Assembly (NCBI RefSeq): GCF_003790525.1
Contig: NZ_CP033635.1
Length of the DNA: 64,000 nucleotides
Source: Escherichia coli
Lineage (GTDB): Bacteria > Pseudomonadota > Gammaproteobacteria > Enterobacterales > Enterobacteriaceae
Direction: 5' to 3' (one strand)
Position numbers and translations under genes: made by a program. The stretch's first letter is position 1; each line of letters opens with the position of its first letter. The notes under the pieces are model-generated. The model was not told where the DNA came from. It did not search any database and saw only the letters and a program-made list of their open reading frames with translations. Shown here piece by piece: positions 6,566 to 6,765 of this stretch.

Positions 6566-6765
6566 CTTGATGGAAATCCGGGCTATCATGCCCGGATTAA
6601 GTCTGATGACAAACGCAAAATCGCCTGATGCGCTACGCTTATCAGGCCTACGTGATTCCTGCAATTTATTGAATTTATTGGCCGGATAAGGCATTTACGC
6701 CGCATCCGGCATGAACAAAACTCACTTTGTCTGCAATCTGAATCCGGGCCACCATGCCCAGTTTA
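6566..6765. repeat. REP/BIME cluster between ridA and mgtA
   Basis: Two REP-like palindromic units (gcctgatgcgctacgcttatcaggcctac and gccggataaggcatttacgccgcatccggc), flanked by inverted cccggatt / aatccggg segments. Confidence 0.75.

What the first reader, a model, noticed from the sequence alone, without database searches (positions are those of the whole stretch)
6566..6765. BIME-like REP cluster flanked by inverted cccggatt segments between ridA and mgtA
Two REP-type palindromes in opposite orientation are embedded in a 200-bp segment whose ends carry inverted gcccggatt / aatccgggc sequences, a composite architecture that may act as a transcriptional insulator or mRNA stabiliser between convergent genes.
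Basis: seen in the sequence. Interest (0 to 1): 0.2.

Follow-up and report, generated by a model that had tools for sequence, protein, structure and literature searches.

The report
BIME-1 repeat flanked by duplicated terminator hairpin
This is an ordinary, already catalogued E. coli BIME-1 repeat (two REP palindromes around an IHF site) between ridA and mgtA, but its "inverted" flanks are really two direct copies of the old terminator hairpin, a footprint that recurs at other BIME-1 sites and hints at how these repeats insert.

Summary
The window is E. coli SMS-3-5, and bases 6565-6769 are the ridA/mgtA convergent intergenic region.

The core, 6599-6741, is a 143-bp BIME-1 (also called RIP or RIB). 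It has a Z1 REP, an L linker with an IHF-like site, an inverted Y REP, and the family's conserved outer motifs. The same element is present in K-12, so it is a known kind of element.

The flanking "cccggatt" segments are not a pair of inverted ends. Each belongs to its own 24-nt hairpin: H1 at 6575-6598 and H2 at 6741-6764. H1 and H2 are direct duplicates, loop included.

Citrobacter sp. R56 has one H1-like hairpin after ridA and no BIME. Several other genera have a single short hairpin flanked by A- and T-runs there.

The architecture is general. In 8 of 16 independent BIME-1 loci, an unrelated terminator-like hairpin is repeated directly against both ends of the element. Five filled/empty allele pairs in E. 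coli genomes show one hairpin at the empty site and two at the filled site, with duplications of about 17-27 bp.

BIME-1 therefore behaves like an insertion that duplicates a terminator stem-loop. I found no accessible paper describing this, but the key 1990s papers were not readable. The element's function (3'-UTR barrier, IHF site) is inferred, not tested.

The parts
6178..6564 (+). ridA coding sequence (stop codon at 6562-6564)
   Evidence: Pfam Ribonuc_L-PSP, E=5e-46. Annotated as ridA in the identical RefSeq record.
6575..6598 (.). H1: perfect hairpin AATCCGGGC-tatcat-GCCCGGATT. It is the left copy of the duplicated target and is orthologous to the hairpin just after ridA in Citrobacter sp. 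R56 and in the ORF allele.
   Evidence: Inverted repeat I11, 9/9 complementary. RNA fold -18.6 kcal/mol on the + strand and -16.2 on the - strand, z about -4.9. Invariant in 7 strains. Single copy without a BIME in L018.
6599..6622 (+). BIME-1 left outer motif (AAGTCTGATGACAAACGCAAAATC; family consensus GAGACTGATGACAAACGCAAAA)
   Evidence: Shared with the yhaH-yqjG, artJ-rlmC and rsmS-mscK copies and 12 others. Conservation starts sharply at this position.
6623..6652 (+). Z1-type REP / palindromic unit with a 3' CTAC tail
   Evidence: Sequence. Fold -13.5 kcal/mol. Aligns to the BIME-1 consensus. IS621 is inserted at ATCAGGCCT^CTACG in strain 97-3250.
6653..6680 (.). L linker carrying an IHF-consensus match (ATTCAATAAATTG at 6662-6674 on the - strand, 1 mismatch to WATCAANNNNTTR). 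It is 10 nt shorter than the family consensus.
   Evidence: The 10-nt deletion is shared by all 7 E. coli strains aligned.
6681..6710 (-). Y-type REP / palindromic unit in inverted orientation. Its GTAG tetranucleotide is mutated to ATTG in this strain; UTI89 and IAI39 keep GTAG.
   Evidence: Fold -19.1 and -19.5 kcal/mol. Sub-threshold Rfam naRNA4 hit at 34.3 bits against a gathering score of 59.5.
6711..6741 (+). BIME-1 right outer motif (ATGAACAAAACTCACTTTGTCTGCAATCTGA). Base 6741 is ambiguous between the element and H2.
   Evidence: Matches elsewhere in E. coli genomes at a median of 9 places per genome. The family boundary is sharp after CAATCTGA.
6741..6764 (.). H2: right copy of the duplicated hairpin, decayed (AATCCGGGC-caccat-GCCCAGTTT), followed by the T-run TTTATTCTTT that reaches the mgtA stop codon.
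   Evidence: Direct repeat D1, 21/25. Two haplotypes among strains; the K-12 loop TATCGT resembles the H1 loop. Fold only -7.3 kcal/mol on the + strand (not significant) and -11.9 on the - strand.
6770..9466 (-). mgtA coding sequence (stop codon at 6770-6772)
   Evidence: Pfam E1-E2_ATPase and related families. RefSeq annotation.

Best explanation
The segment is one copy of the known E. coli repeat BIME-1 (RIP/RIB). The family unit is 153 bp and this copy is 143 bp. It is built as outer motif, Z1 REP, IHF-site linker, inverted Y REP, outer motif.

The element sits inside what used to be a single compact hairpin between the convergent genes ridA and mgtA, flanked by an A-run and a T-run. Its arrival duplicated that hairpin. 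H1 (left, intact, keeps the upstream A-run) and H2 (right, decaying, keeps the downstream T-run) are the two copies of a 23-24-bp target-site duplication.

Shown here:
- the identity of the element;
- the direct duplication of the hairpin;
- the single-hairpin state in a relative;
- the same filled/empty pattern at five other loci.

Inferred:
- Integration used cuts at the two feet of the stem-loop, about 0-1 nt 5' and 1-3 nt 3' of the stem. The duplicated length therefore follows hairpin size.
- A plausible chemistry is a hairpin-recognising single-strand nuclease (RAYT/TnpA-REP-like) cutting 3' of the palindrome on each strand, with fill-in copying the palindrome. This is speculation.
- Today the element is part of both 3' UTRs. 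The REP and H1 stem-loops would act as 3'-exonuclease barriers or attenuators, and the linker as an IHF site, as published for this family.
For: Identity of the element:
- The alignment to a consensus BIME-1 runs end to end, apart from a 10-nt linker deletion.
- The outer motifs are shared with other copies.
- There is an IHF-consensus match.
- The published definition of BIME-1 is z1 + y, a long L linker with an IHF site, and single copy (PMC3333891).

Duplication of the hairpin:
- Direct repeat of 21/25.
- The motif is found only at these two places in 64 kb, against 0.04 expected.
- The loops agree in direct orientation across haplotypes.

Pre-existing hairpin:
- Citrobacter sp. R56 has ridA-TAA...AAAATCCGGGCgctaatGCCCGGATT with no BIME.
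- Five of the 12 relatives with a short spacer (37-114 bp) have one hairpin flanked by A- and T-runs as their only evident stem-loop there.

Generality:
- 8 of 16 independent BIME-1 loci have flank direct repeats scoring 10-18. The 240 permuted flank pairs have mean 5.6 and maximum 10. The repeats abut the element ends.
- Filled/empty pairs at pitA-uspB, metE-ysgA, artJ-rlmC, ymdF-rutG and tcdA-mltA show one hairpin when empty and two when filled. Duplications are about 17-27 bp, and each folds at -14 to -19 kcal/mol.
- One copy can later be lost (strain E62 at artJ-rlmC). This explains loci with a hairpin on one side only.
Against: - No empty allele of the ridA-mgtA site exists among 5,426 E. 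coli genomes. For this locus the ancestral state is therefore inferred from Citrobacter sp. R56 and from the hairpin in the alternative ORF allele.
- In Citrobacter sp. R56 the H1-like hairpin is followed by a second, unrelated hairpin rather than directly by mgtA.
- Half of the BIME-1 loci lack a clear duplication. At nagD-asnB the filled allele has no second copy.
- A duplication whose length varies from 17 to 27 bp fits no known transposase. The enzyme is unknown.
- The direction of change (insertion or precise excision) is not polarised by an outgroup at most loci.
- The terminator scan found no canonical terminator here, and no transcript 3'-end data could be obtained. The functional part is inference from the literature.
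Confidence: 0.8

Rival explanations
1. The whole 191-bp unit (H1 through H2) is a distinct non-autonomous mobile element of the IS200/IS605 (PATE) type. Its own subterminal hairpins, in direct orientation, would be the ends recognised by a transposase, with the REP pair as cargo.
For: H1 and H2 are similar hairpins in direct orientation on the same strand, like the left-end and right-end hairpins of IS200/IS605 elements. REPs are related to such hairpins (PMC3333891).
Against: - The hairpin motif occurs nowhere else in the window.
- In E. coli genomes the listed matches of the left-flank query outside this locus cover only its BIME outer-motif part, not the hairpin.
- Other BIME-1 copies carry different, locus-specific hairpins that are present singly at empty sites.
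- The hairpin exists without a BIME in Citrobacter sp. R56.
Confidence: 0.03
2. H1 and H2 are two independent terminators, one for each convergent gene. They would resemble each other by chance or convergence, and the BIME-1 simply landed between them.
For: Convergent genes often have their own terminators. Citrobacter sp. R56 has two hairpins between ridA and mgtA.
Against: - Identity of 21/25 including loop bases, and the K-12 haplotype brings the loops closer still.
- The second Citrobacter hairpin is unrelated in sequence.
- The same "coincidence" would have to recur at seven other BIME-1 loci, whereas no permuted flank pair scores above 10.
- Empty alleles at five loci have one hairpin, not two.
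Confidence: 0.04
3. The hairpin duplications are not made by insertion. The flanking repeats would arise afterwards, for example by slippage or gene conversion around a palindrome-rich element. Alternatively, empty sites are only products of deletion between pre-existing repeats, so nothing can be said about an insertion mechanism.
For: - Bachellier et al. 1997 (Genetics 145:551), known to me only from its abstract, described absence as "excision of a whole BIME-1".
- Deletions of one hairpin copy do occur.
- The direction of change is unpolarised at most loci.
Against: - The repeats abut the element ends to within 0-2 nt at eight loci, and the element boundaries are sharp. Secondary slippage would not give this.
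- All of about 5,400 E. coli genomes are empty at metE-ysgA, while one divergent lineage is filled.
- Other genera have short spacers at ridA-mgtA, several with a single hairpin.
Confidence: 0.1

Closest known systems
BIME-1 / RIP / RIB elements of E. coli (Gilson, Bachellier, Hofnung; Oppenheim 1993; Boccard & Prentki 1993)
   Same: Z1 and Y palindromic units in opposite orientation. Long L linker with an IHF consensus. Conserved outer motifs. Single copy. Located at the 3' ends of transcription units. Present or absent among strains. This element is a member.
   Different: This copy has a 10-nt deletion in L and a mutated GTAG next to the Y unit. The direct duplication of the target terminator hairpin on both sides is not mentioned in any paper I could read.
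REPINs mobilised by RAYT / TnpA-REP
   Same: A doublet of inverted REPs forming a long hairpin, thought to be the replicative unit. E. coli REPs are bound and cleaved by TnpA-REP on single strands (PMC3333891, PMC3116915).
   Different: IS200/IS605-type single-strand transposition makes no target duplication (PMC2817692). Here the hairpin is duplicated. No RAYT involvement was tested.
Bacterial MITEs (ERIC/IRU, Correia, RUP and others)
   Same: Small size, no coding capacity, imperfect terminal inverted repeats (AGACTGATGACAAA / TTTGTCAACAATCT, 12/14), flanking direct repeats of target DNA, and an IHF site as in Correia elements.
   Different: MITE duplications have a fixed short length set by the transposase. 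Here the length (about 17-27 bp) follows the size of a stem-loop. A 2011 review states that REPs lack MITE signatures (PMC3184786).
CRISPR repeat duplication on spacer integration (Cas1-Cas2 with IHF in E. coli). This is an analogy from my own knowledge.
   Same: Integration at the two borders of a palindromic repeat duplicates that repeat. IHF is involved. The target is recognised partly by structure.
   Different: The inserted DNA is 153 bp with fixed ends, not a 33-bp spacer. Targets are unrelated terminators. There is no evidence of Cas involvement.
Terminator-targeting elements (class IIC group II introns; IS621/IS1397 targeting REPs)
   Same: Stem-loops at gene ends are used as landing sites. 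IS621 is indeed found in this very REP in some strains.
   Different: Those elements make no duplication, or one of 2-4 bp, and they encode their own enzyme.

Membership tests
BIME-1 (RIP/RIB) | One Z1 and one Y palindromic unit in opposite orientation | tested here: met
   6623-6652 (GCCTGATGCG...CAGGCCTAC) and 6681-6710 (reverse complement GCCGGATGCGGCG...TTATCCGGC). The definition is taken from PMC3333891.
BIME-1 (RIP/RIB) | Long L linker carrying an IHF consensus site | tested here: met
   ATTCAATAAATTG at 6662-6674 on the - strand, 1 mismatch to WATCAANNNNTTR. The linker aligns to the family L motif but lacks 10 nt.
BIME-1 (RIP/RIB) | Single unit, not a tandem array (which would be BIME-2 or atypical) | tested here: met
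   Only two REPs lie in the 205-bp spacer.
BIME-1 (RIP/RIB) | Conserved outer motifs outside the two palindromic units | tested here: met
   The left and right motifs align with 15 other copies, with sharp conservation boundaries.
BIME-1 (RIP/RIB) | IHF actually binds the element | not testable with these tools
   Only a consensus match was seen.
REP competent for RAYT (TnpA-REP) | GTAG tetranucleotide 5' of the palindrome foot | tested here: inconclusive
   Z1 has CTAC/GTAG. The Y unit has ATTG in SMS-3-5 and GTTG in K-12, but GTAG in UTI89 and IAI39.
MITE | Terminal inverted repeats plus a target-site duplication of fixed length | tested here: not met
   Imperfect TIRs are present (12/14). 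The flanking duplication varies from about 17 to 27 bp with hairpin size.
IS200/IS605-derived PATE | Element-borne subterminal hairpins conserved between copies, and no target duplication | tested here: not met
   The flanking hairpins differ at every locus and pre-exist at empty sites.
Intrinsic (Rho-independent) terminator, for H1 and H2 | GC-rich stem-loop followed directly by a U-run | tested here: inconclusive
   The scan found 0. H1 has a strong stem but no U-run on the + strand and only AUUUCCAU on the - strand. H2 has the U-run but a weak stem of -7.3 kcal/mol.

The most novel reading that the evidence does not exclude
BIME-1 is, or was, a 153-bp mobile unit with imperfect terminal inverted repeats. 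It integrates at intrinsic-terminator stem-loops by cuts at the two feet of the stem-loop, and so duplicates the whole hairpin. The target-site duplication is defined by structure and has variable length (about 17-27 bp).

This signature has not been described. It would give the first concrete target rule and junction chemistry for the dispersal of REP/BIME elements, which recent papers still call unknown or semi-random (PMC8266576; bioRxiv 10.64898/2026.03.23.713779).

The pattern itself is well supported here. The main uncertainty is whether the unread 1990s papers (Bachellier et al. 1997, 1999) already reported it.
Probability: 0.4. Interest if true: 0.7.

Novelty: already known. Interest (0 to 1): 0.42.

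Why it matters
For the locus itself, little: it is a catalogued repeat found in most E. coli.

The flanks tell more. They show that this BIME-1 landed in the shared ridA/mgtA hairpin and copied it. Both genes kept a hairpin, but their 3' UTRs now run through the repeat and overlap by about 190 nt.

The same footprint at many other BIME-1 sites means these elements choose terminator stem-loops and leave a characteristic scar. That turns the long-open question of how REP/BIME elements spread into something testable:
- a trap plasmid carrying a terminator hairpin;
- with and without RAYT, and with and without IHF;
- a junction PCR for hairpin|GAGACTGATGAC.

It also explains part of the strain-to-strain variation in 3' UTRs.

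Tried and rejected
- **Rfam on 6000-10500**: only sub-threshold REP-like hits (naRNA4 at 34.3 bits against 59.5; ES036), plus the expected Mg riboswitch. No RNA family explains the flanks.
- **Promoter/terminator scan**: no canonical terminator and one weak promoter-like site. Not informative.
- **A fixed-spacing REP pattern** found nothing because the spacing was too rigid. It was replaced by regex and BLAST.
- **The K-12 RefSeq record** in the collection carries no repeat_region features, so the official REP/RIP number of this element could not be read.
- **A synthetic empty-site query** found no empty allele in 5,426 genomes.
- **Literature:** Bachellier 1997, Boccard & Prentki 1993 and Gilson 1991 are not held. 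One search was swamped by the word "rib". Term-seq supplements are not held.
- **Replication-strand bias** of the insertion orientation was considered and dropped. From my recollection of the K-12 map, two loci give opposite answers.
- **A strict link between BIME-1 orientation and the T-run** was considered. It holds at most loci but fails at tcdA-mltA.
- **Fold-back (rolling-hairpin) synthesis** was rejected as the source of the duplication, because the loops are copied in direct orientation, not flipped.

Full report
**Where we are.** The window is 100% identical to E. coli SMS-3-5. The local gene order is pyrB, pyrI, ridA on the + strand (stop at 6562-6564), then mgtA on the - strand (stop at 6770-6772). 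The Mg riboswitch/mgtL leader lies at 9560-9675 (Rfam RF01056, 125.8 bits), followed by treR. The finding therefore covers the whole 205-bp spacer between two convergent genes.

**Check of the observation.**
- A REP palindrome lies at 6623-6652 and an oppositely oriented one at 6681-6710.
- GCCCGGATT is at 6590-6598 and AATCCGGGC at 6741-6749.
Bases 6575-6598 form a perfect hairpin on their own (AATCCGGGC-tatcat-GCCCGGATT). Bases 6575-6599 and 6741-6765 are a direct repeat with 21 of 25 identical.
- The hairpin pattern with up to three mismatches occurs only at these two places in 64 kb. The expectation is 0.04, and no shuffle out of 100 reached two matches.

**What the core is.**
- BLAST of the left and right flanks against 5,426 complete E. 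coli genomes showed that 6599-6622 and 6711-6741 recur elsewhere in the chromosome. The hairpins do not appear in the listed matches.
- The other places (yhaH-yqjG, artJ-rlmC, rsmS-mscK) are REP pairs of the same build.
- A pattern scan of metagenome contigs gave 118 usable matches in 36 sequence clusters, about two-thirds of them real copies.
- From 15 copies the family unit is 153 bp. It runs GAGACTGATGACAAACGCAAAA, Z1 REP, linker with ATTCAATATATTG, inverted Y REP, ATGAACAAAGCGCACTTTGTCAACAATCTGA. Conservation begins and ends abruptly.
- This is the published BIME-1: z1 plus y, a long L linker with an IHF site, single copy (PMC3333891; about 140 bp in PMC1187871).
- The copy in the window aligns end to end. 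It has a 10-nt deletion in L (143 bp, 6599-6741) and keeps an IHF-consensus match at 6662-6674.
- The same element is in K-12, so it is a known element.

**What the flanks are.**
- Seven E. coli strains were aligned. H1 is invariant.
- H2 has two haplotypes: AATCCGGGCcaccatGCCCAGTTT (SMS-3-5, UTI89, IAI39) and AATCGGGGCtatcgtGCCCAGTTT (K-12, O157:H7).
- The K-12 H2 loop differs from the H1 loop (tatcat) at one base, in direct orientation. H1 and H2 therefore descend from one 24-bp sequence copied head to tail. They are not the two arms of an inverted repeat.
- I fetched the mgtA 3' neighbourhood from 80 species; 18 have ridA next to mgtA.
- Citrobacter sp. R56 has ridA-TAA-gcgatAAAATCCGGGCgctaatGCCCGGATTacg with no BIME. 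Two genera (Enterobacter sp. BIGb0383 and "Escherichia" sp. ESNIH1) have spacers of only 37-42 bp, each holding a single hairpin between an A-run and a T-run. Three more (K. oxytoca, Mangrovibacter, Shimwellia) have one such hairpin as the only evident stem-loop in 67-110 bp.
- Joining H1 to the T-run that now follows H2 gives a spacer of about 39 bp of just that kind.
- The simplest history is this: one shared hairpin, a BIME-1 arrives, the hairpin ends up on both sides.

**Is that a general property?** Yes.
- Many other BIME-1 copies are bracketed by two direct copies of a hairpin that is unrelated from locus to locus.
- I compared the 40 nt outside each end of 16 independent copies with 240 permuted flank pairs.
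  - The null has mean score 5.6 and maximum 10.
  - Eight loci score 10-18, and seven of them exceed every permuted pair.
  - In seven of the eight the repeat touches the element ends within 0-2 nt; at the eighth (L199) the right copy starts 6 nt out.
- Five loci are polymorphic in the E. coli genome collection, or between that collection and a metagenome contig. In each, the empty allele has one hairpin and the filled allele has two (the scripted overlap counts ambiguous junction bases; at ymdF-rutG it over-extends to 36, so the by-eye 23 is used):

| Locus | Duplicated bp |
|---|---|
| pitA-uspB | 25-27 |
| metE-ysgA | about 19-20 |
| artJ-rlmC | 17-18 |
| ymdF-rutG | 23 |
| tcdA-mltA | 20-22 (left end of element truncated) |

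- The duplicated segment is the stem-loop plus about one base 3' of it. Each folds at -14 to -19 kcal/mol.
- The base before the element is T in 13 of 15 copies.
- One copy can be lost later. Strain E62 has deleted the left hairpin at artJ-rlmC. This accounts for loci with a hairpin on one side only.
- At nagD-asnB there is no second copy and the right flank is rearranged.
- The T-run is on the right side of the element, as oriented here, at most loci. At tcdA-mltA it is not.

**Mechanism.**
- Shown: BIME-1 has fixed ends. It lies at terminator-like stem-loops. It is flanked by a direct duplication whose length tracks the stem-loop.
- Inferred: integration used one cut at each foot of the stem-loop on opposite strands, and repair synthesis copied the stem-loop.
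- Loops are copied in direct orientation, so fold-back synthesis is excluded.
- A palindrome looks the same on both strands. A hairpin-recognising single-strand nuclease cutting 3' of the stem on each strand would therefore give exactly this stagger. The REP-associated transposase TnpA-REP binds hairpins, cleaves nearby and leaves a 3'-OH (PMC3333891). It is therefore a candidate. However, IS200-type transposition makes no duplication (PMC2817692), and terminators lack the GTAG that TnpA-REP requires. This step is speculation.
- The 12/14 inverted repeat at the element ends and the central IHF site resemble a MITE. A variable 17-27-bp duplication does not.

**Function at this locus (inference only).**
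- On the ridA strand, H1 is a strong hairpin (-18.6 kcal/mol) with no U-run. H2 has the U-run but a decayed stem (-7.3 kcal/mol, not different from shuffles).
- On the mgtA strand, H2 folds at -11.9 and H1 at -16.2 kcal/mol, followed by AUUUCCAU.
- Both strands of the whole spacer fold far better than shuffles (z = -4.5 and -4.1).
- Both transcripts probably run into or through the BIME, and their 3' UTRs overlap.
- Published work assigns REP/BIME elements the roles of 3'-exonuclease barrier, partial Rho-dependent attenuator and IHF site. It also reports higher expression of convergent pairs that contain a REP (PMC6061677; bioRxiv 10.64898/2026.03.23.713779).
- I could not obtain 3'-end data for ridA or mgtA.

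**Polymorphism.**
- Roughly 4,980 of 5,426 genomes carry both flanks of the BIME allele. Of these, 4,677 have it uninterrupted.
- Some carry IS621 in the Z1 REP at ATCAGGCCT^CTACG, with the CT duplicated.
- 443 genomes carry a 151-aa ORF instead.
- No genome has the bare single-hairpin site.

**Comparison with the literature.**
- The papers I could read define BIME-1, note its presence/absence among strains, and discuss RAYT. None mentions duplicated terminator hairpins.
- A 2011 review says REPs lack MITE signatures.
- A 2026 preprint speaks of semi-random insertion by an unknown mechanism.
- The 1997 Genetics paper that sequenced BIME-1 filled and empty sites, and called absence "excision of a whole BIME-1", is not held. 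It may already contain this observation.

**Verdict.** The finding is a real, correctly located and already known kind of element (BIME-1/RIP), so the locus itself is ordinary. This footprint is shared by many BIME-1 copies, and that is the part worth following up.

Noticed in passing
L001 1781-2236 (E. coli strain C7; replaces window 6565-6769): 443 of 5,426 E. coli genomes carry a low-GC 151-aa ORF between ridA and mgtA instead of the BIME. It has an N-terminal HTH_Tnp_1 domain followed by hydrophobic helices, and PGAP labels it "transposase". The same ORF sits at the same place in E. albertii (88% aa), Citrobacter sp. FP75 (56%) and Phytobacter (40%). It is therefore an old resident gene of unknown function, not an IS.
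   Followed up: partly
L002 about 1790-3090 (E. coli 97-3250); corresponds to window 6647/6648: IS621 (IS110 family) is inserted in the Z1 REP of this BIME. The junctions read ATCAGGCCT|IS621|CTACG and the CT is duplicated. From memory, this agrees with the published REP target of IS621.
   Followed up: partly
window 36085-36235 (- strand): A second, degenerate but full-length BIME-1 copy (151 nt aligned to the consensus). Its flanks show only weak hints of a repeat.
   Followed up: partly
window 20400-20429, 26625-26654, about 41778-41873: Further REP palindromes, Y-type singles and a cluster, none with BIME-1 outer motifs.
   Followed up: no
window 9560-9675 (- strand): The Mg2+ riboswitch of the mgtA leader, Rfam RF01056, 125.8 bits. 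This is expected.
   Followed up: no
L007 vs L219 (artJ-rlmC): Strain E62 has lost the left copy of the duplicated hairpin through a 24-bp deletion, while K-12 keeps both copies. In MG1655p, PGAP annotates a partial "hypothetical protein" pseudogene across the BIME-1, which looks spurious.
   Followed up: partly
L222 vs L136 (tcdA-mltA): This BIME-1 copy lacks the first 12 nt of the left outer motif yet still has the hairpin duplicated on both sides. Here the A-run, not the T-run, adjoins the element, the opposite of most loci.
   Followed up: no
window 6741-6764 across strains (alignment A1): H1 is invariant while H2 has two haplotypes, each with a different stem mismatch. At other loci it is usually the left copy that decays. 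The copy that stays intact seems to be the one next to the stronger A- or T-run.
   Followed up: partly
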